A stretch of 47,403 bases of DNA from Parcubacteria group bacterium (GTDB taxonomy: Bacteria; Patescibacteriota; Minisyncoccia; Phycocordibacterales; Phycocordibacteraceae), in NCBI GenBank assembly GCA_028286615.1, contig JAQBRG010000008.1, forward strand, positions 1-47,403. Direction: 5' to 3'. This document shows, in pieces, positions 16,464 through 30,035 of this stretch; the stretch's first letter is position 1, and each line of letters opens with the position of its first letter. A program made the translations under genes and the position numbers. The notes below the pieces were generated by a model. That model worked only from the letters and a program-made list of their open reading frames with translations. It ran no database searches and was not told where the DNA came from.

Positions 16464-16504
16464 ATCAGAATTGTAGCATTTCGTTAGCAGGACGCCCGCA
16501 TGCT

Positions 16505-17110
16505 ATGCGTATGAAATTAATTTCGTACGTACTTGATCTGCTGTTTCCACCACGCCCTACACAAAAGATTGTGAGTGGGCTCACACTCGAAGATATTTCA
16601 GCTCTTGTTCGCCAGCGTCGTATTAAATTAGACGGAATTGGCGTTACCGTACTTCTTCCTTATAAAGACCCTCGCGTTCGCGCACTTATTCTTGAAGCAA
16701 GGGTCAATAACAATCGAAAGGCTCAAAAAATCCTTGGGCAGGTGGTCGCTGCACATCTCCACAAACTTCATCCGCTACCAATAGTCCTTATTCCAATTCC
16801 TCTATCGGCTGCGCGAAAAAGACTCAAGGGTTACAGCTCGGTTGAAAGAATAGCTGAAGAAGCCCTGAAGGTGGAGAGGTGTGGTGGCCATACCTATGAA
16901 GCCGGGTTGCTTGTCTGCACCTGTGATATTCCTTCTCAAAACGGTTTTGCTGGCATAAATACCTTTAAAAACCACGATCTTCCTCACCCAACATACCTAT
17001 ATATGGTATTGGACGATGTAGCAGCAGCCGGATCCAGCTTTTGTGCTGCAAAAGCGGCACTTGAGATGGCAGGCGCAATTCATGTCTCACTTCTATCTCT
17101 AGCCAGATAG
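16505..17110 (+). CDS. comF: ComF-family phosphoribosyltransferase-like protein
   Basis: 201 aa with a PRT-type motif (YMVLDDVAAAGSS). It is divergent from the pilus operon. It is a degenerate version, lacking the N-terminal Zn-finger cysteines. Confidence 0.6.
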   Translation: MRMKLISYVLDLLFPPRPTQKIVSGLTLEDISALVRQRRIKLDGIGVTVLLPYKDPRVRALILEARVNNNRKAQKILGQVVAAHLHKLHPLPIVLIPIPLSAARKRLKGYSSVERIAEEALKVERCGGHTYEAGLLVCTCDIPSQNGFAGINTFKNHDLPHPTYLYMVLDDVAAAGSSFCAAKAALEMAGAIHVSLLSLAR

Positions 17111-17257
17111 CTCACATAATACCTTTAAGTCATTGACTTTTCTTGAAAATGAATTAGGGTATTAACAACTTCGTTTGCTTATCTACTAGATAACAGAGCC
17201 CATGTGGGCCCTGGAGTAGCGAAGTATTGGTCTTTCACAGAAGAATAGGAACAGTTC

Positions 17258-17701
17258 ATGAGAAAGCTATTGTCTCTGGTGCTCGCTTTTGCGTGCATCG
17301 CAGAATCAAGCTACGCGGAGCCGCAGAGCCCTTCGGCAACCTGGGGGTCTTCCCCTACGTTTCGGGACGCAAACGATCGCGCCGTTGACCGGGCCACTGC
17401 CGAGGCCATTCAACGTTCAAGGAACGGTGGCTACGGTCCGGCTCAATCAGTCGTAAACGGTGACATTATCACCAACAACAACTGCGAAGGCGATTGCACG
17501 AGCAATAGCTCGTCGACCACCAACGCGGTGAACTACACGAGCAATAGCTCGTCGACCAGTCTCACCGATTCGCCCAACGCGAACGTGGGGATCAACTACC
17601 GAACGGGGGCCAGTAGCAATGGCGTCAACCAATCGGCAACCAGCCAAGTCAACACAGCAAACGGTTCGCTCACGGCGACCGGCGCTGCAGCGACGCACTG
17701 A
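17258..17701 (+). CDS. Secreted Asn/Ser/Thr-rich protein (island gene 1)
   Basis: Signal peptide MRKLLSLVLAFACIAESSYA. The C-terminal half is low-complexity N/S/T-rich and contains a perfect 23-nt tandem duplication. High GC. Confidence 0.65.
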   Translation: MRKLLSLVLAFACIAESSYAEPQSPSATWGSSPTFRDANDRAVDRATAEAIQRSRNGGYGPAQSVVNGDIITNNNCEGDCTSNSSSTTNAVNYTSNSSSTSLTDSPNANVGINYRTGASSNGVNQSATSQVNTANGSLTATGAAATH

Positions 17702-17718
17702 AACCAAGGGGAAACACA

Positions 17719-18638
17719 TGAATAAGAACATCATGAGCATCGTCGCCATATTGGCGGGGATGACGCTTAGCGCATGCCAATCTGCTCAAGGGGGCACATT
17801 CACGGGGGGTCTTTCGACCCTTCACGAGCCTGCTCCCGTCCGATATGTGAGTCCATACGCTGATGCGCTCAAGTGCCTGAAAAGCCAGCTCTCGCCTCAG
17901 CAAAGCGAAACGGCGGTGGGTATCTTGTACTTCACTCAACGCACTGGGAAGGAAGTCTACGCAGCTGATAGCGCGTCGGGCAAATACCTTTCCGATGGCG
18001 GCGAGGATATGCTAATGAACAGCCTGCTCGAAACCGGCATAAAAGTCGTTGAGCTCGGCATCGCCGCACGAAACCTGAGCGACTACATGGCCGCTCGAAT
18101 TCCTAGAATCGATGAGAAGGGCCAGCCGCTATACAATCCGGCTGCCCTCCCAGACCTTCAAATCAGCGGGTCTTTTTCTGCTCTGGACTTCGGTTCAGGG
18201 GATGTCAAAGAGCTGCGGGTAAAGGGTATCGGTGGTGGGAAGCGCGTTTTCGGCGCCCGCTACCTCGTGACGGCACGGATGTCCAACGTCGTTGGAGGTC
18301 ACGGCCTCAGAGGCGACATGCTTGAGGGGGCTGTAACCGTCGCGAAATCCTCCTTCAAGAAGGATGTGATGGGACAGGAAATCAAGGCTGGTGTGGCGTC
18401 GTTCTTCGGCGGCCCCAGCTCTGACACCTACATCGAACTAAACCTTGATCATGAAGACCGTCAGTTGATGCAGCTCTCGCAGCAGTACTCAGCCGATTAT
18501 CTGGCCTACGACCTGGTCTCCCAATGGGCCCACATCACTGTTTGTGAGCCGCATCGGGAATACGGCGACTATTTACTTTCTGGCAATTACGTCGGCAAAA
18601 GGCCGGTTCCGGTCTCTACCCTTGCGCAGAAGAAATAG
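17719..18638 (+). CDS. CsgG/HfaB-like lipoprotein (putative secretion channel)
   Basis: The start is moved to ATG 17719 with the SD-like AAGGGGA upstream. There is a lipobox (GMTLSAC). By-eye similarity to E. coli CsgG segments: AVGILYFTQRTGKE, GGEDMLMNSLLETG, ISGSFSALDFG, GARYLVTARMSNVVGG. Confidence 0.5.
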
Positions 18639-18840
18639 CTGTGTTAGGGTTCTGAAGTTCGCAGCCAGTCCCAACAGCCCATCCTGAAAAGGATAGACTC
18701 CTAGGACCGGTAACGAATGTTCTCGTTTTCGCACGCGAGGACAATTTCTTTTTGTCGTTCGCGACATTAGGGAATGAATCGTGCGTATTCAAGGGGGCCC
18801 TGCAAGGGGATGCTCCATTCACTATGGGAAAATACCTGAA

Positions 18841-19263
18841 ATGAAAAAGATCCTTCTCGCCGGCGTCGCCGCGTTCGCTCTGTCCTTCGCCATGGGCGCG
18901 CAAGCGGCCACCGTCAACGTCACCGCCGCCGCCAACATGGGCGTCGTCAACAAGGTCGGCGGCACCACGCAGGCTGCGACGAACATCGACATCAACGTCG
19001 GCAACATCACCAGCTCGACTCTCGACCAGTCCGCGACCAACCTCGACGGCGCTGTGATCAACAAGCTGGACATCGATCAGACGGCGTCCTTCGGCAACCT
19101 GGCCCTCGGCCTCAATGCCGCGGCCGTCGCCGTCAACGAATCCGTGCACCAGGTGGCCGTGAACGTCACCGGGTCCGGCGCCGTCAGCGGCAGCAACCTC
19201 ACGGGCGCTGCGACCAACGTGACCGGCCTGGTCTCGAACGCCGCGACGATCAACGTCCGCTAA
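18841..19263 (+). CDS. Secreted repeat protein, curlin/beta-solenoid-like (island gene 3)
   Basis: Signal peptide MKKILLAGVAAFALSFAMGAQA. This is followed by imperfect repeats rich in N/A/T/V/G (QAATNIDINVGNI, QSATNLDGAVINKL, QTASFGNLALGLN, HQVAVNVTGSG, GAATNVTGLVSN). About 65% GC. Confidence 0.6.
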   Translation: MKKILLAGVAAFALSFAMGAQAATVNVTAAANMGVVNKVGGTTQAATNIDINVGNITSSTLDQSATNLDGAVINKLDIDQTASFGNLALGLNAAAVAVNESVHQVAVNVTGSGAVSGSNLTGAATNVTGLVSNAATINVR

Positions 19264-19311
19264 GCTTCGGTCTTCGGACCAAGCAACCATCGTTCCTTAA
19301 CTGGAACATCA

Positions 19312-19345
19312 GCCCTTCGCCGTAAAACGCGAAGGGCTTTTTCTT
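19312..19345 (+). terminator. Intrinsic terminator closing the high-GC block
   Basis: GCCCTTCGC (19312-19320) pairs with GCGAAGGGC (19329-19337) and is followed by TTTTTCTTT. Confidence 0.75.
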
Positions 19346-19381
19346 TGCTCCAGGCGATTGAAGTGATAAGTTAGGAGAATT

Positions 19382-19468
19382 GGAGACGTGGCTGAGTGGT
19401 CGAAAGTACCTCACTGCTAACGAGGCAGGGATTAACGTCCCTCGAGGGTTCGAATCCCTCCGTCTCCG
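19382..19468 (+). tRNA. tRNA-Ser (anticodon GCU)
   Basis: The acceptor stem GGAGACG/CGTCTCC pairs. The anticodon loop is CTGCTAA. There is a long variable arm (AGGGA-TTAACG-TCCCT) and a T arm GAGGG-TTCGAAT-CCCTC. No CCA is encoded. Confidence 0.9.
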
Positions 19469-19473
19469 CACCT

Positions 19474-20334
19474 ATGAATAAATGGCTTAAGATTGCTCTC
19501 TATACCCTTCTAGGACTTTTTGCCTTGGTTGGTTTACTTTTCACCGCAGTATTCGTTGCGATGCGTTTTGATCTCTTGAACGTGCAGGGTTCTAATGCCT
19601 TGCGTAACGAATTCTTCCTTGGGACTTCAACACCTGACAAGCAACAGGCCGTTAAGAGCCAGCCTTGCAACGACAAGAGCAAGACGGTCTGTGACTGGAC
19701 CGAAACACCTGAATGGAATGTGGTTGAAGGAGGTCTTACCAAAGACGCAGCCGTAATCGCACGCGTTTCAAAAGAGACGGGGATTGATGGACGCATCATG
19801 GCTTCAGTGGTTATTCCTGAGCAGATTCGGTTCTTTACCTCAGAGCGTGAAGTGTTCAAGCGATACTTCGAGCCACTTAAGATACTTGGTTCCCTTTCGC
19901 AATTCTCTCTAGGCGTATCAGGTATCAAACAAGAAACGGCTGCTCAGGCAGAAGTCTATGCAAACGATTCCACCTCTCCTTTTTACCCAGGTGCAAAGTT
20001 TGCGGACCTCCTCGCCTACCCTGCAGGCACAGAGCATGACGCAGAACTCTACCGTCGTCTCACGGACGACAAGGATCACTACTATTCCTATCTATATACA
20101 GCGTTATATATAAAAGAGATTGAGACGCAATGGAAAACTGCAGGATTTGATATTCGTAACAATCCCGAAGCACTGGTTACACTTTTCAATATTGGTTTCG
20201 CTAACTCACATCCAAACGCAAACCCTCAGCCAGGAGGAGCACCTATAACCGTTGGAGGAAAGACCTACGCTTTTGGCGAGCTTGGCGCTAACTTCTATCA
20301 TTCAGACAAACTTCTTACTGCATTTCCTCGGTAA
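19474..20334 (+). CDS. Membrane-anchored hypothetical protein
   Basis: I chose the ATG at 19474 (MNKWLKIALYTLLGLFALVGLLF); the ORF-track start at 19396 lies inside the tRNA-Ser. It has one N-terminal TM helix and an extracytoplasmic domain. Confidence 0.7.
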   Translation: MNKWLKIALYTLLGLFALVGLLFTAVFVAMRFDLLNVQGSNALRNEFFLGTSTPDKQQAVKSQPCNDKSKTVCDWTETPEWNVVEGGLTKDAAVIARVSKETGIDGRIMASVVIPEQIRFFTSEREVFKRYFEPLKILGSLSQFSLGVSGIKQETAAQAEVYANDSTSPFYPGAKFADLLAYPAGTEHDAELYRRLTDDKDHYYSYLYTALYIKEIETQWKTAGFDIRNNPEALVTLFNIGFANSHPNANPQPGGAPITVGGKTYAFGELGANFYHSDKLLTAFPR

Positions 20335-28803: not shown

Positions 28804-29916
28804 ATGCAGGTTATCATTGGAAAAGATGGCTGGATGGAGTCCGTTACGTTTCTTCGCCCATCGAACTTCCATGCGCATCTGCGCCGCGCGCAGCTAATGC
28901 AGGCGATGGCGAAGATCATCATGCAGTACGTGTTGTATCTGCTGGTGATGCCGAACACCGGACCCATACGCACCATGGAAGAAGCTCTCAAGTATTACGA
29001 CGAGCTCATGGAAATTGCTGAACGGGAGGGACTGAAGAAGCTTCGGTTGATTATGACGTTGTATCACACCAAGGACATTACAATCTCTGTTATCGAGGAG
29101 ATCGCAAATTCCACAATCGTCCGCGCGATCAAGCACTATCCTCCGCATCCCGGTGCAACAACCGGAAGCGGTTTCGGTATGGCACTTGAAGATAGTGATT
29201 ATCAATTTGAGGCCATGGCTGCGAACGGAGTTCCCCTTTTGGGTCACTTTGAAGCCGTGGTCGACAAATATAATCGTCCGCTGGATCCTAAGCACGGCGA
29301 AGCCCACATGGTGCGTGAGCATTTGTGGCGGCTGCGAGACAAGCACCCCAACCTTCGCATCTGCTTTGAGCACGTAAGCACGAAGGAGGGGGTCGACTGG
29401 GTAAAGGCTGATACATCGGGCAATACCGTCGCCACCATTACCCCTCACCACCCCTTCTTCAATGAAGGAGACCTCGAGCGTGAGGGACCGGATCTCAAGT
29501 GCAAGCCTACCGTCCAAACTCCAGAAAACCAGGAGGCTGTAACCGATTTTATGGTCTCGGGAGATCCTCGAGCAATTTCAGGTGACGATGACGCGCCACA
29601 TCCCAGCAAGACCAAGCACGTTTCCTTCGAGGATGCAGCAAACGGTTGCGCACTTCCGCATGCCATTCCGATGTACGCGAACAAATTCATCGAGAGAAAG
29701 GCGATGGATCAGAGGTTCGAAAACTTCATGTCCCTTAACGGCCCGCGTTGGTGGGGGCTTGAACCTCCAGCCAATGACGACACCATTACGATCGTGCGCA
29801 GCGACGACGACATGCCCGAACCTATTCCAATTCCGGGAACTGATGACGTTGTCGTGCCTCTAGGATGGCGGGCTGGTGCTGACAGACTCCGTCTTGGTTT
29901 GGCTGTAAAAGGCTAG
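28804..29916 (+). CDS. pyrC: Class II dihydroorotase
   Basis: All metal and carboxy-lysine positions of E. coli PyrC can be matched by eye: FHAHLR (HxH), AIKHYP (Lys), LLGHFE (His), FEHVST (His), ATITPHH and GDDDAPH (Asp). Confidence 0.75.
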   Translation: MQVIIGKDGWMESVTFLRPSNFHAHLRRAQLMQAMAKIIMQYVLYLLVMPNTGPIRTMEEALKYYDELMEIAEREGLKKLRLIMTLYHTKDITISVIEEIANSTIVRAIKHYPPHPGATTGSGFGMALEDSDYQFEAMAANGVPLLGHFEAVVDKYNRPLDPKHGEAHMVREHLWRLRDKHPNLRICFEHVSTKEGVDWVKADTSGNTVATITPHHPFFNEGDLEREGPDLKCKPTVQTPENQEAVTDFMVSGDPRAISGDDDAPHPSKTKHVSFEDAANGCALPHAIPMYANKFIERKAMDQRFENFMSLNGPRWWGLEPPANDDTITIVRSDDDMPEPIPIPGTDDVVVPLGWRAGADRLRLGLAVKG

Positions 29917-29960: not shown

Positions 29961-29961
29961 G

Positions 29962-30035
29962 TGCGCCCATCAGGACTCGAACCTGAAACCGCTTAGGTAT
30001 AAGCTAAGTGCTCTAACCAATTGAGCTATAGGCGC
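29962..30035 (-). tRNA. tRNA-Ile (anticodon UAU)
   Basis: The reverse complement folds as GCGCCTA-TA-GCTC-AATTGGTTA-GAGC-A-CTTAG-CTTATAC-CTAAG-CGGTT-TCAGG-TTCGAGT-CCTGA-TGGGCGC-A. The anticodon loop C-T-TAT-A-C gives UAU. Confidence 0.85.

What the first reader, a model, noticed from the sequence alone, without database searches (positions are those of the whole stretch)
17111..19345. Compositionally foreign high-GC block encoding a CsgG/HfaB-like lipoprotein flanked by amyloid-like secreted repeat proteins
- **Composition.** Three co-oriented genes lie in a block unlike its surroundings. My hand counts on 60-nt samples give 63% and 68% G+C at 18841-18960 and 65% at 18241-18300. The flanks give 43% at 16501-16560 and 43% at 19501-19560. 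Third codon positions are almost all G/C. The block also produces a 224-aa antisense ORF (18616-19290), a typical high-GC artefact.
- **Middle gene.** It is a lipobox lipoprotein that I can align by eye to several E. coli CsgG segments.
- **Flanking genes.** Both carry signal peptides followed by N/S/T/G/A-rich repeats reminiscent of curlin or Caulobacter HfaA-type subunits.
- **Why it is odd.** CsgG/HfaB are outer-membrane secretion channels of diderm bacteria. Every other gene in the window looks like a small-genome, CPR-like organism, and such organisms are generally reported to lack an outer membrane.
- **Possible explanations.** Recent horizontal acquisition, re-use of a curli/holdfast-type adhesion fibre system in an episymbiont, or a chimeric assembly.
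- **Boundaries.** The block ends at a strong terminator and tRNA-Ser(GCU). No integrase is present.
Basis: partly seen in the sequence, partly recalled or inferred. Interest (0 to 1): 0.8.

Follow-up and report, generated by a model that had tools for sequence, protein, structure and literature searches.

The report
CsgG/HfaB-type fibre-secretion cassette in Paceibacterota
A GC-rich three-gene block in a genome from the Candidate Phyla Radiation (CPR, ultrasmall bacteria thought to lack an outer membrane) encodes a curli/holdfast-type channel protein and two small secreted proteins. It is a real, recurring module of this lineage, although its known relatives all work in an outer membrane.

Summary
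**Observation.** Confirmed. The block 17258-19263 is the most deviant 2-kb stretch of the contig: 57.7% vs 48.2% GC, tetranucleotide z=4.7, and GC3 z=+3.6, +3.0 and +7.4 for its three genes.

**The three genes.**
- **Gene B** belongs to the CsgG/HfaB superfamily. Its family profile matches E. coli CsgG at E=5e-17. Its AlphaFold model (pLDDT 87) matches membrane-form CsgG at E=5e-13.
- **Gene A** shares an N-terminal motif with the small genes found upstream of proteobacterial CsgG/HfaB genes.
- **Gene C** is a partner seen only in this lineage.

**Not a chimera, and not a one-off import from a diderm.** The A-B-C cassette recurs in at least 10 Patescibacteria (mostly Paceibacterota) contexts. 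Two of them sit at the same comF/tRNA-Ser site, and they come from independent assemblies. Most relatives have that site empty.

**Most likely function.** A Sec-dependent fibre or adhesin secretion-assembly system of the holdfast-anchor/curli kind. C is separately and strongly expressed from a conserved promoter and a structured leader.

**Unresolved.** It is unknown which membrane a CsgG-type barrel uses in a lineage held to be monoderm. In the window's own clade 14 of 18 homologues have lost the lipid anchor.

**Verdict.** A new variant of a known kind. I found no paper describing it.

The parts
16505..17110 (+). comF-like gene; left flank of the insertion site
   Evidence: It is conserved next to pilM in 24 relatives by tblastn. 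It has no Pfam hit itself. In most relatives tRNA-Ser(GCU) follows it directly.
17133..17160 (+). Putative sigma-70-type promoter of the A-B operon (TTGACT, 16-nt spacer, TAGGGT)
   Evidence: Each of 10 cassettes has one TTGAC[AT]-N16/17-TAnnnT match 97-147 nt upstream of gene A. This is inferred, not mapped. The generic promoter scan did not list it.
17258..17701 (+). Gene A: 147-aa secreted protein. It has a signal peptide, then a conserved N-terminal motif (W..S..F....R..D...AE.....GGYG), then an N/S/T-rich tail. It occupies the 'HfaA position'.
   Evidence: Homologues lie directly upstream of B in 8 CPR cassettes used for the alignment and comparisons. The profile-profile match to proteobacterial upstream genes has 95% probability, E=3.4e-8. 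The A profile finds an ORF directly upstream of B in 16 of 79 proteobacterial loci. The mature protein is 64% N+S+T+G+A.
17718..18638 (+). Gene B: 306-aa CsgG/HfaB-superfamily lipoprotein (lipobox LSAC, Cys20); predicted channel subunit
   Evidence: - Pfam CsgG: 16 bits (cut-off 20.8). NCBIfam HfaB: 31.5 bits (cut-off 300).
- The 40-member family profile hits E. coli CsgG structures at E=5e-17 over 248 positions.
- AlphaFold model: pLDDT 87, pTM 0.80.
- The top 25 Foldseek hits are all CsgG, with the membrane-bound form best at E=5.4e-13.
- The hydropathy pattern of the barrel hairpins is the same as in proteobacterial homologues.
- An AAGGGGA ribosome-binding site lies 5 nt before the ATG at 17718.
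18622..18650 (+). Conserved promoter of gene C, overlapping the end of B. It reads TTGCGC, a 17-nt spacer containing an extended-10 TG, then TAGGGT.
   Evidence: The same cTTGCg-N17-TGnTAnnnT arrangement sits at or just after the B stop codon in all 10 cassettes examined.
18658..18753 (+). Structured 5' leader of gene C. A rod-like stem-loop (18658-18717) is followed by a terminator-like hairpin (18718-18743) and a U-run.
   Evidence: - The terminator-like site is listed.
- RNAalifold on 5 leaders gives 26 pairs, 10 with compensatory changes.
- 86% of cells are paired against 78% in shuffles (0/500). The covariation score is 0.40 against 0.25 (0/500).
- No Rfam family matches.
- Only 5 sequences were used, so this is suggestive.
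18841..19263 (+). Gene C: 140-aa secreted A/V/N/T/G-rich protein, the lineage-specific third component and probably the abundant subunit
   Evidence: - Homologues of 141-159 aa follow B in all CPR cassettes.
- No proteobacterial counterpart was found.
- GC3 is 0.92, and C is the most GC3-rich cassette gene in eight of nine cassettes measured.
- It has its own conserved promoter.
- It is missing from the public protein collection.
18616..19290 (-). 224-aa antisense ORF: a shadow of GC-rich gene C, not a gene
   Evidence: It is listed. Its exact sequence is in the public collection (NCBI nr), whereas gene C is not. Conservation, a signal peptide and GC3 all support the + strand frame.
19311..19348 (+). 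Intrinsic terminator ending the cassette
   Evidence: A stem of 10 pairs (7 G-C) followed by TTTTTCTTTG.
19382..19469 (+). tRNA-Ser(GCU); right flank of the insertion site
   Evidence: ARAGORN and Rfam tRNA at 55.8 bits. It abuts comF in most relatives.

Best explanation
**What it is.** The block is a genuine, self-contained three-gene secretion-assembly cassette that is typical of Paceibacterota (Patescibacteria/CPR). It sits here in a variable slot between comF and tRNA-Ser(GCU).

**Anatomy.**
- A promoter drives A and then B. A is a small Sec-exported protein with a conserved N-terminal docking-type motif and an N/S/T-rich tail. B is a CsgG/HfaB-superfamily lipoprotein.
- A second, strongly conserved promoter at the B stop codon drives C, a small Sec-exported A/V/N/T/G-rich protein. 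A structured leader carrying a terminator-like hairpin lies between that promoter and C.
- A strong terminator ends the unit.

**Proposed mechanism.** This is inferred by analogy with Caulobacter HfaA/HfaB/HfaD and with curli CsgA/CsgG.
1. All three proteins cross the cytoplasmic membrane through Sec.
2. B oligomerises into a CsgG-like ring whose paired beta-hairpins form a barrel.
3. A and C are passed through B, or nucleated on it, as unfolded chains.
4. They assemble into a surface fibre or adhesive anchor, with C as the bulk subunit and A as the minor or anchoring subunit.

**What is shown and what is inferred.** The family, fold, conservation, synteny and promoters are shown. The oligomer, the substrates and the fibre are inferred.

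**Composition.** The foreign composition has two causes. In this genome (and in L029) the whole cassette looks laterally replaced or acquired from a GC-richer relative. Related Paceibacterota range from 43 to 64% GC. In addition, gene C is markedly GC3-rich in most hosts for an unknown reason.

**Open point.** Which membrane B's barrel sits in, given that the lineage is held to lack an outer membrane, is not resolved.
For: **Real, and not chimeric.**
- The same comF-A-B-C-tRNA-Ser arrangement is present in L003. Its genome is 64% GC and its PilM is 77% identical.
- L029-L032 carry the same arrangement with full flanking synteny: PilB..PilM, ComF, cupredoxin, DoxX, NUDIX, malic enzyme. It was read on 13 contigs from several samples.

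**Lineage-wide.**
- Further A-B-C cassettes lie in other housekeeping contexts:
  - next to MsrB;
  - next to MscS;
  - after KhpA and TrmD;
  - between the S41 peptidase and ribosomal protein L9;
  - between GroEL/M48 and MscL;
  - between DnaK and DnaJ;
  - between S7/CofD and EF-G.
- Source names or neighbour proteins place several of them in Patescibacteria/Paceibacterota.
- In most relatives tRNA-Ser directly follows comF and there is no cassette.

**B is CsgG-like.**. The amphipathic barrel hairpins are retained.

**A and C.**
- The A-B pairing is conserved from Proteobacteria to CPR.
- C is found only in the CPR cassettes.

**Regulation.** Promoters are conserved in 10 of 10 cassettes, and the C leader shows covariation.

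**Composition.**
-.
- Gene C has GC3 well above its host in seven of nine cassettes. One example is L041, where A and B are host-like: 0.91 for C against 0.66 for the host. In the two GC-richest hosts, L003 and L044, it is host-like.
- The host's own major pilin uses A/T at four-fold sites, unlike gene C.

**Roles of Hfa proteins and CsgG.** PMC6707917 and bioRxiv 10.1101/2022.07.20.500906.
Against: - No experiment or structure shows that A or C are substrates, or that they form fibres.
- The single-sequence model of C failed, with pLDDT 42.
- Neither A nor C matches Curlin_rpt.
- C shows no similarity to the proteobacterial downstream (HfaD-position) protein.
- A CsgG-type barrel is known only in outer membranes. 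Patescibacteria are proposed to lack one (PMC12102498), and the type IV pilus operon in this window has no secretin. The cellular site of B is therefore unexplained.
- No close donor of the cassette has been sampled. The best identity for B is 43%. Lateral acquisition rests on composition and on presence/absence alone.
- If the cassette is ancient at this locus, the high GC3 of A and B needs another cause, for example biased gene conversion.
Confidence: 0.6

Rival explanations
1. B is not a channel in the bacterium's own envelope. It is released or surface-exposed and inserts, like a beta-pore-forming toxin, into the outer membrane of a host (basibiont) cell. A and C then form the tether or conduit between epibiont and host.
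For: - In the NJ clade that contains the window, 14 of 18 full-length homologues have a plain signal peptide and no lipobox cysteine. All 29 full-length proteobacterial homologues keep the cysteine.
- The amphipathic hairpins are nevertheless retained.
- The lineage is proposed to lack an outer membrane (PMC12102498).
- All cultivated Patescibacteria are episymbionts (PMC12206443, abstract).
- Three cassettes sit beside the type IV pilus operon.
Against: - This is purely inferential.
- The window's own B keeps a canonical lipobox (LSAC).
- Hosts of Paceibacterota are unknown.
- No CsgG-family protein is known to insert into a foreign membrane.
- Other CPR clades of the family are mostly lipoproteins: 13 of 14 and 9 of 12.
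Confidence: 0.15
2. The Paceibacterota that carry the cassette have an outer membrane or an equivalent outer lipid layer. B works there exactly as CsgG/HfaB do in diderms.
For: B keeps every sequence feature of an outer-membrane CsgG-type barrel, plus a lipobox. The cassette is entrenched in the lineage in many genomic contexts, which argues that it functions.
Against: - There is no secretin in the type IV pilus operon. No outer-membrane biogenesis or porin family appears among about 40 ORFs of the window.
- The literature proposes that Patescibacteria have no outer membrane (PMC12102498).
- Frequent loss of the lipobox in the closest clade is unexpected if Lol-type sorting to an outer membrane were required.
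Confidence: 0.1
3. The block is a recent direct transfer from a GC-rich diderm (for example an alphaproteobacterium) and is a passenger with no adapted function.
For: The block has high GC and GC3 relative to its host. The family is abundant in Alpha-, Beta- and Gammaproteobacteria.
Against: - The nearest homologues that could be placed taxonomically are Patescibacteria cassettes. Named Proteobacteria form a separate clade.
- Gene C and the C promoter and leader are found only in the CPR cassettes and are conserved there.
- The ORFs are intact and have conserved promoters.
Confidence: 0.05
4. The block is an assembly chimera or a binning contaminant.
For: There is a sharp compositional contrast. 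In one related MAG the cassette lies on a separate 2.6-kb contig.
Against: The same junctions occur in L003 and L029-L032, which come from independent assemblies and samples. The 2.6-kb contig has the same 63-64% GC as its MAG's pilM contig. The non-coding parts of the insert are not GC-rich.
Confidence: 0.02

Closest known systems
Caulobacter holdfast anchor system HfaA-HfaB-HfaD
   Same: - The gene order matches: small secreted protein, then a CsgG-like lipoprotein, then a second secreted protein.
- B matches the NCBIfam HfaB model better than any other family, at E=9.5e-8. So do 39 of 40 family members, with a best E of 2.4e-26.
- A shares an N-terminal motif with the small genes upstream of proteobacterial CsgG/HfaB-family genes.
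- In Caulobacter, HfaB is required to export HfaA and HfaD, which form SDS-resistant multimers (PMC6707917; 10.1101/2022.07.20.500906).
   Different: - B scores 31.5 bits against the 300-bit equivalog cut-off.
- The third gene, C (140 aa), shows no similarity to the larger repeat protein in the HfaD position of Ochrobactrum or to any proteobacterial locus examined.
- No holdfast polysaccharide genes are nearby.
- The host is a CPR bacterium proposed to lack the outer membrane in which HfaB sits.
- C has its own promoter and leader.
- The Caulobacter HfaA and HfaD sequences themselves could not be fetched for comparison.
Curli secretion channel CsgG (E. coli; PDB 4UV3, 6L7A, 3X2R)
   Same: - The predicted fold is the same, including the two extended beta-hairpins of the membrane-bound form. 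Foldseek gives E=5e-13 and a TM-score of 0.52-0.65.
- The profile-to-sequence match is E=5e-17.
- There is an N-terminal lipobox.
- There is a loop of similar length, carrying aromatic residues, at the position of the constriction loop.
   Different: - Sequence identity is about 15%.
- The protein alone is below the Pfam threshold.
- There are no CsgE, CsgF or CsgB/CsgA (Curlin_rpt) partners.
- The close relatives frequently lack the lipid anchor.
Proteobacterial 'CsgG/HfaB family protein' loci (Brucella/Ochrobactrum, Aureimonas, Rhodobacteraceae, Polynucleobacter, Thauera, Acinetobacter)
   Same: B is homologous over its full length, at 26-29% identity to the window (up to 40% for other CPR cassettes). 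An A-like gene lies directly upstream in at least 16 of 79 loci.
   Different: - These proteins form a separate clade in the NJ tree.
- They are always lipoproteins.
- Many are longer, at 340-600 aa.
- The downstream partner is a larger repeat protein of 283-517 aa that is unrelated to C.

Membership tests
CsgG/HfaB superfamily (Pfam PF03783) | Significant match of the protein itself to the family model | tested here: not met
   16.0 bits, E=0.0079, against a gathering cut-off of 20.8. Only residues 60-108 are matched.
CsgG/HfaB superfamily (Pfam PF03783) | Homology shown through intermediate sequences or a family profile | tested here: met
   - 91 homologues by exhaustive HMMER search.
- 22 of 40 pass E<=0.01 to PF03783, with a best E of 3e-12.
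- The profile of 40 hits E. coli CsgG chains at E=5.3e-17 over profile positions 8-255.
- The window's protein scores 272 bits against the 64-member profile, alongside PF03783-annotated proteins.
CsgG/HfaB superfamily (Pfam PF03783) | CsgG fold: an alpha/beta core plus two long beta-hairpins that form the barrel | tested here: met
   The AlphaFold model has pLDDT 87.1 and pTM 0.80, with strands of 20-24 residues. The top 25 Foldseek PDB hits are all CsgG, and the membrane-bound form scores better than the pre-pore form. This is a prediction, not an experiment.
CsgG/HfaB superfamily (Pfam PF03783) | N-terminal lipoprotein signal (lipobox cysteine) | tested here: met
   The sequence reads MNKNIMSIVAILAGMTLSAC-QS. 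The feature is absent from 14 of 18 homologues in the window's own clade.
CsgG/HfaB superfamily (Pfam PF03783) | Oligomeric (nonameric) channel in an outer membrane | not testable with these tools
The hairpin hydropathy pattern equals that of diderm homologues.
HfaB (NCBIfam NF037935, equivalog) | Score at or above the equivalog cut-off | tested here: not met
   31.5 bits against a 300-bit cut-off, with two matched stretches, the best at residues 15-112. Among 40 family members the best E-value against the HfaB model was only 2.4e-26.
Holdfast anchor operon hfaA-hfaB-hfaD | Gene order: small secreted protein, then channel lipoprotein, then second secreted protein | tested here: met
   A is at 17258-17701, B at 17718-18638 and C at 18841-19263. 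The proteobacterial family loci have the same layout.
Holdfast anchor operon hfaA-hfaB-hfaD | Upstream protein homologous to HfaA | tested here: inconclusive
   A is homologous to the upstream small proteins of proteobacterial CsgG/HfaB-family loci: hhalign 95% probability, E=3.4e-8, and 16 of 79 loci by HMM. Caulobacter HfaA itself was not available, and no library model matched.
Holdfast anchor operon hfaA-hfaB-hfaD | Downstream protein homologous to HfaD | tested here: not met
   The C profile against the Ochrobactrum downstream protein gives 2.7% probability. The C profile finds nothing in 79 proteobacterial loci.
Curli system (csgBAC/csgDEFG) | Subunits with Curlin repeats (PF07012) | tested here: not met
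   A and C have no Pfam family at E<=1.
Curli system (csgBAC/csgDEFG) | Accessory factors CsgE and CsgF encoded alongside | tested here: not met
   There are no such families among about 40 ORFs of the window. The cassette holds three genes only.
tRNA-associated integrative genomic island | Integrase plus flanking direct repeats (att) derived from the tRNA | tested here: not met
   No integrase family is present in the window. No flanking direct repeat longer than chance was found. Only the adjacency to tRNA-Ser(GCU) and the empty sites in relatives fit this family.

The most novel reading that the evidence does not exclude
A CsgG-type beta-barrel former has been adopted by outer-membrane-less CPR bacteria. 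It would act as an exported pore or anchor that inserts into the outer membrane of the host cell the epibiont sits on. A and C would form the connecting fibre. That would make it a host-attachment or host-access device built from a curli/holdfast secretion channel. The frequent loss of the lipid anchor in the window's clade, together with retention of the amphipathic hairpins, fits this reading.
Probability: 0.15. Interest if true: 0.9.

Novelty: new variant of a known kind. Interest (0 to 1): 0.7.

Why it matters
**The paradox.** CsgG and HfaB are textbook outer-membrane channels. Here a whole clade of them, with conserved partners, promoters and many genomic positions, sits in Paceibacterota, a lineage generally held to have no outer membrane.

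**What follows.** One of three things must be true:
- these cells have an unrecognised outer layer;
- the barrel works in some other setting, such as the cell wall or S-layer, or a host membrane;
- the fold has a non-channel role.

Each outcome bears directly on two open questions: what the CPR cell envelope looks like, and how ultrasmall episymbionts attach to partners.

**It is testable.**
- B can be expressed and tested for pore formation, with and without the lipid anchor.
- A and C can be tested for B-dependent export and fibre formation.
- Metatranscriptomes can be examined for the predicted C transcript.

**Annotation.** Gene C is missing from the public protein collection because its antisense shadow ORF was called instead. 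The closest homologues of B that carry a source name are annotated only as hypothetical proteins, and several carry no recorded Pfam hit.

Tried and rejected
- **Word-indexed protein search.** With B it found only the window's own protein. With C it found nothing. The exhaustive HMMER search was needed.
- **PDB sequence search.** B alone gave only chance hits.
- **NCBIfam and Pfam on A, C and their homologues.** Nothing meaningful came back.
- **Structure prediction of C.**
  - The single-sequence model was useless, with pLDDT 42, and was not fold-searched.
- **Similarity of C to the HfaD-position protein of Ochrobactrum.** None was found.
- **Attempts to reach Caulobacter hfa loci.** A scan of genome contigs with a proteobacterial B alignment returned Brucella, Aureimonas, Acinetobacter and others, but no Caulobacter.
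- **Further scans.**
  - Scans with broad alignments failed for lack of conserved stretches.
  - Scans with A3 and A13 found only L001.
  - The viral-contig scan found nothing.
  - The metagenome scan found one 1.5-kb contig.
- **Classical genomic island.** Rejected: there is no integrase and there are no att-like repeats.
- **Expression-driven codon bias as the sole cause of high GC3.** Rejected:
  - The host's major pilin prefers A/T at four-fold sites.
  - Ribosomal protein genes next to other cassettes are not GC3-enriched.
- **Tandem or internal repeats in A and C.** TRF found none. The internal alignment score is not above shuffles for A and is marginal for C.
- **Consensus structure for the A leader.** RNAalifold found none.
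- **Rfam.** No known RNA family lies in the block apart from the tRNA.


Full report
**1.

Composition:
The flank samples are local lows, since the contig is 48.6% GC overall.
- The coding block 17258-19263 is 57.7% GC against 48.2% elsewhere. It is the highest of all 2-kb windows; the next highest is 52.6%.
- It is the most deviant window in tetranucleotide usage, z=4.7.
- Against 39 other genes of the window (GC3 0.46 +/- 0.06), gene A has GC3 0.68 (z=+3.6), gene B 0.65 (+3.0) and gene C 0.92 (+7.4).
- Only the coding parts are GC-rich. The 147 nt before A are 38% GC and the B-C spacer is 49.5%.

Features:
- The 224-aa antisense ORF is present.
- The terminator is at 19311-19338.
- tRNA-Ser(GCU) is at 19382-19469.
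- No integrase and no att-like repeats were found.

**2. The host.**

Gene content of the window:
- It carries GatA and LigA.
- It carries a type IV pilus operon: minor pilins, PilD, a major pilin, PilC, PilT, PilB and PilO/N/M. There is no secretin.
- It also carries ComF, cupredoxin, NUDIX, malic enzyme, RecG, FtsH, SmpB and tmRNA.

Relatives:
- All 27 genome-collection relatives of its PilM (64-77% identity) are Patescibacteria MAGs. They are labelled Paceibacterota, Parcubacteria, Kaiserbacteria or 'Saccharibacteria'.
- Their GC content ranges from 43 to 64%.

**3. Gene B is a CsgG/HfaB-superfamily protein.**
- On its own, B is below the thresholds: Pfam CsgG 16 bits against 20.8, and NCBIfam HfaB 31.5 bits against 300. 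It has no relatives that share short words with it.
- An exhaustive HMMER search found 91 homologous cluster representatives, the best at 38-43% identity.
- Of 40 aligned members, 39 hit the HfaB model and 22 hit Pfam CsgG.
- Their profile matches E. coli CsgG structures at E=5e-17 over almost the whole length.
- An AlphaFold model built from that alignment has pLDDT 87 and pTM 0.80, with 20-24-residue strands. Its 25 best PDB matches are all CsgG. The membrane-bound form (6L7A, 4UV3; E about 1e-12) fits better than the pre-pore form.
- Along the two barrel hairpins, the hydrophobic/polar alternation is the same in the CPR and proteobacterial clades.
- B has a canonical lipobox (LSAC) and a good ribosome-binding site at the 17718 start.

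**4. The cassette is a unit, and it belongs to this lineage.**

At the same locus:
- L003 (PilM 77% identical, genome 64% GC) carries ComF, then A, B and C, then tRNA-Ser.
- L029-L032 (13 contigs, several samples) carry PilB..PilM, ComF, tRNA-Ser, A-B-C, cupredoxin, DoxX, NUDIX and malic enzyme.
- This excludes a chimera.

In other places:
- L001 is a 2.6-kb contig of a 63% GC MAG whose pilM contig has the same GC.
- L033 lies beside MsrB.
- L038 lies beside MscS.
- L040 lies after KhpA and TrmD.
- L041/L042 lie between the S41 peptidase and ribosomal protein L9. Its B is MDR3546910.1, from 'Candidatus Paceibacterota'.
- L043 lies between GroEL/M48 and MscL.
- A JGI contig carries the cassette between DnaK and DnaJ.
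- L044 lies between S7/CofD and EF-G.
- Neighbour proteins cluster at 90% identity with Patescibacteria/Paceibacterota proteins.

Empty sites and tree:
- In most PilM relatives, tRNA-Ser follows comF within about 10-150 nt and no cassette protein is detectable. The site is therefore polymorphic.
- In an NJ tree, the named Proteobacteria form their own clade and all verified CPR cassettes fall in the other half.

**5. Genes A and C.**

Both proteins:
- Both have typical signal peptides.
- Both are N/S/T/G/A-rich, at 64% and 60%.
- Neither matches Curlin_rpt or any other family.

Gene A:
- The A family has a conserved N-terminal motif, W..S..F....R..D...AE.....GGYG.
- The motif recurs in the small genes directly upstream of proteobacterial CsgG/HfaB-family genes.
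  - hhalign gives 95% probability, E=3.4e-8.
  - The A profile finds such an ORF, always immediately upstream of B, in 16 of 79 proteobacterial loci.
- This is the hfaA position. In Caulobacter, HfaB is needed to export HfaA and HfaD, which form SDS-resistant multimers (PMC6707917; 10.1101/2022.07.20.500906).

Gene C:
- C is conserved in the CPR cassettes.
- It shows no similarity to the proteobacterial downstream proteins.

Repeats and structure:
- True repeats are not supported.
- The single-sequence structure model of C failed.

**6. Regulation (found in passing).**
- All 10 cassettes carry a near-consensus promoter at the B stop codon. In the window it is TTGCGC at 18622-18627, a 17-nt spacer with TG, and TAGGGT at 18645-18650.
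- A roughly 100-nt leader follows. It has a rod-like stem-loop and a terminator-like hairpin with a U-run.
- On five leaders, 10 of 26 pairs show compensatory change and all covariation measures exceed the shuffles. No Rfam family matches.
- A second promoter, TTGAC[AT]-N16/17-TAnnnT, lies 97-147 nt before A in all 10 cassettes.
- C is therefore transcribed separately. It is probably the abundant component and is possibly controlled by attenuation.

**7. Composition explained in part.**
- Gene C has GC3 well above its host genes in seven of the nine cassettes measured. Cassette against host:
  - window: 0.92 against 0.46;
  - L029: 0.90 against 0.62;
  - L041: 0.91 against 0.66;
  - L040: 0.83 against 0.65;
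  - L043: 0.84 against 0.64;
  - L033: 0.72 against 0.47;
  - L038: 0.60 against 0.44.
- In the two GC-richest hosts it is host-like: 0.87 against about 0.83 in L003, and 0.88 against 0.86 in L044.
- A and B are clearly elevated (z of 3 or more) only in the window and in L029. They are host-like in L038, L040, L041 and L044.
- Codon selection linked to expression does not explain this:
  - The host pilin prefers A/T at four-fold sites.
  - Ribosomal genes adjacent to other cassettes are not enriched.
- I conclude that the window's cassette was laterally acquired or replaced from a GC-richer relative. The extra GC3 of C is an unexplained property of that gene.
- Cassette proteins are only 30-50% identical between genomes whose PilM is 76-83% identical. 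They therefore evolve fast or are exchanged, and no close donor has been sampled.

**8. The paradox.**
- Patescibacteria are proposed to lack an outer membrane (PMC12102498), and this pilus operon has no secretin. Yet B keeps everything a CsgG-type barrel needs.
- In the NJ clade that holds the window, 14 of 18 full-length homologues have replaced the lipobox with a plain signal peptide. All 29 full-length proteobacterial homologues keep the cysteine. Two other CPR clades are mostly lipoproteins.
- This is consistent with a setting where lipoprotein sorting to an outer membrane is irrelevant.
- It leaves open three possibilities: a wall- or S-layer-embedded ring, an unrecognised outer layer, or insertion into a host membrane.

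**9. Novelty.**
- Full-text searches for CsgG or curli together with Patescibacteria or the Candidate Phyla Radiation found nothing relevant.
- Earlier surveys noted only that CsgG belongs to a larger family with many paralogues (PMC3521004).
- The closest homologues of B that carry a source name are annotated only as hypothetical proteins.
- Gene C is absent from the public protein collection because the antisense ORF was called instead.

**10. Verdict.**
- The cassette is a real new variant of the CsgG/HfaB secretion-assembly theme, specific to this lineage.
- It has a new third component, its own regulatory architecture and an unresolved cellular location.

Noticed in passing
window 18616-19290 (- strand) versus 18841-19263 (+ strand): The public protein collection (NCBI nr) holds the 224-aa antisense shadow ORF. 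It does not hold gene C or the 147-aa form of gene A. B is recorded with a start 14 codons too late, which removes most of its signal peptide (292 aa against 306 aa).
   Followed up: yes
window 18622-18753; same position in L001, L003, L029, L033, L038, L040, L041, L043, L044: A near-consensus extended-10 promoter lies at the B stop codon in all 10 cassettes. A roughly 100-nt structured leader follows, made of a rod-like stem-loop and a terminator-like hairpin, ahead of gene C. Covariation on 5 sequences is above all shuffles, and there is no Rfam match. It could be an attenuator, an unknown riboswitch-like element or a small RNA.
   Followed up: partly
window 17133-17257; upstream of gene A in 10 cassettes: One TTGAC[AT]-N16/17-TAnnnT promoter lies about 100-150 nt before A in every cassette. 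Each 5' UTR can close a long-range stem (in the window, ACTTCG pairs with CGAAGT). RNAalifold found no consensus structure on six sequences.
   Followed up: partly
gene C in window, L029, L033, L038, L040, L041, L043: Gene C has GC3 well above its host genes in seven of nine cassettes, by +0.16 to +0.46. This holds even where A and B are host-like, and nearby ribosomal genes are not enriched. In the GC-richest hosts, L003 and L044, it is host-like. The cause is unknown; candidates are recombination or biased gene conversion, or selection on the mRNA.
   Followed up: partly
N-termini of B homologues (P0004, P0009, P0010, P0012-P0016, P0019, L003 and others): In the window's own clade 14 of 18 full-length homologues have lost the lipobox cysteine and carry a plain signal peptide. 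All 29 full-length proteobacterial homologues keep it.
   Followed up: yes
comF-tRNA-Ser junction in L004, L017, L024, L027, L028; tRNA-to-next-gene region in L010, L020; L029 5140-5227: The junction is a variable spot. Some relatives have 0.6-1 kb of other sequence between comF and tRNA-Ser, or 3-4.6 kb after the tRNA. In L029, L018 and L022 the tRNA-Ser is inverted relative to comF, and in L029 it lies between comF and the cassette.
   Followed up: no
L044 4628-6484; JGI 3300056388 contig (no DNA held): In other Patescibacteria-like contigs the cassette lies inside core housekeeping clusters. One sits between rpsG/CofD and fusA, and one sits between dnaK and dnaJ.
   Followed up: no
window 17497-17519 and 17536-17558: An exact 23-nt direct repeat lies inside gene A. 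It encodes TSNSSST twice, 13 codons apart, and is the only clear repeat in the block.
   Followed up: no
window 28804-29916, next to tRNA-Ile(UAU) at 29961-30035: A 370-aa ORF with no Pfam match has the second-highest GC3 in the window (0.60). It lies in the second-highest GC region, beside another tRNA gene.
   Followed up: no
L002-L028 against the window: Genomes whose PilM is 64-78% identical span 43-64% GC. Base composition therefore shifts quickly within this Paceibacterota group, which makes within-lineage transfers look 'foreign'.
   Followed up: partly
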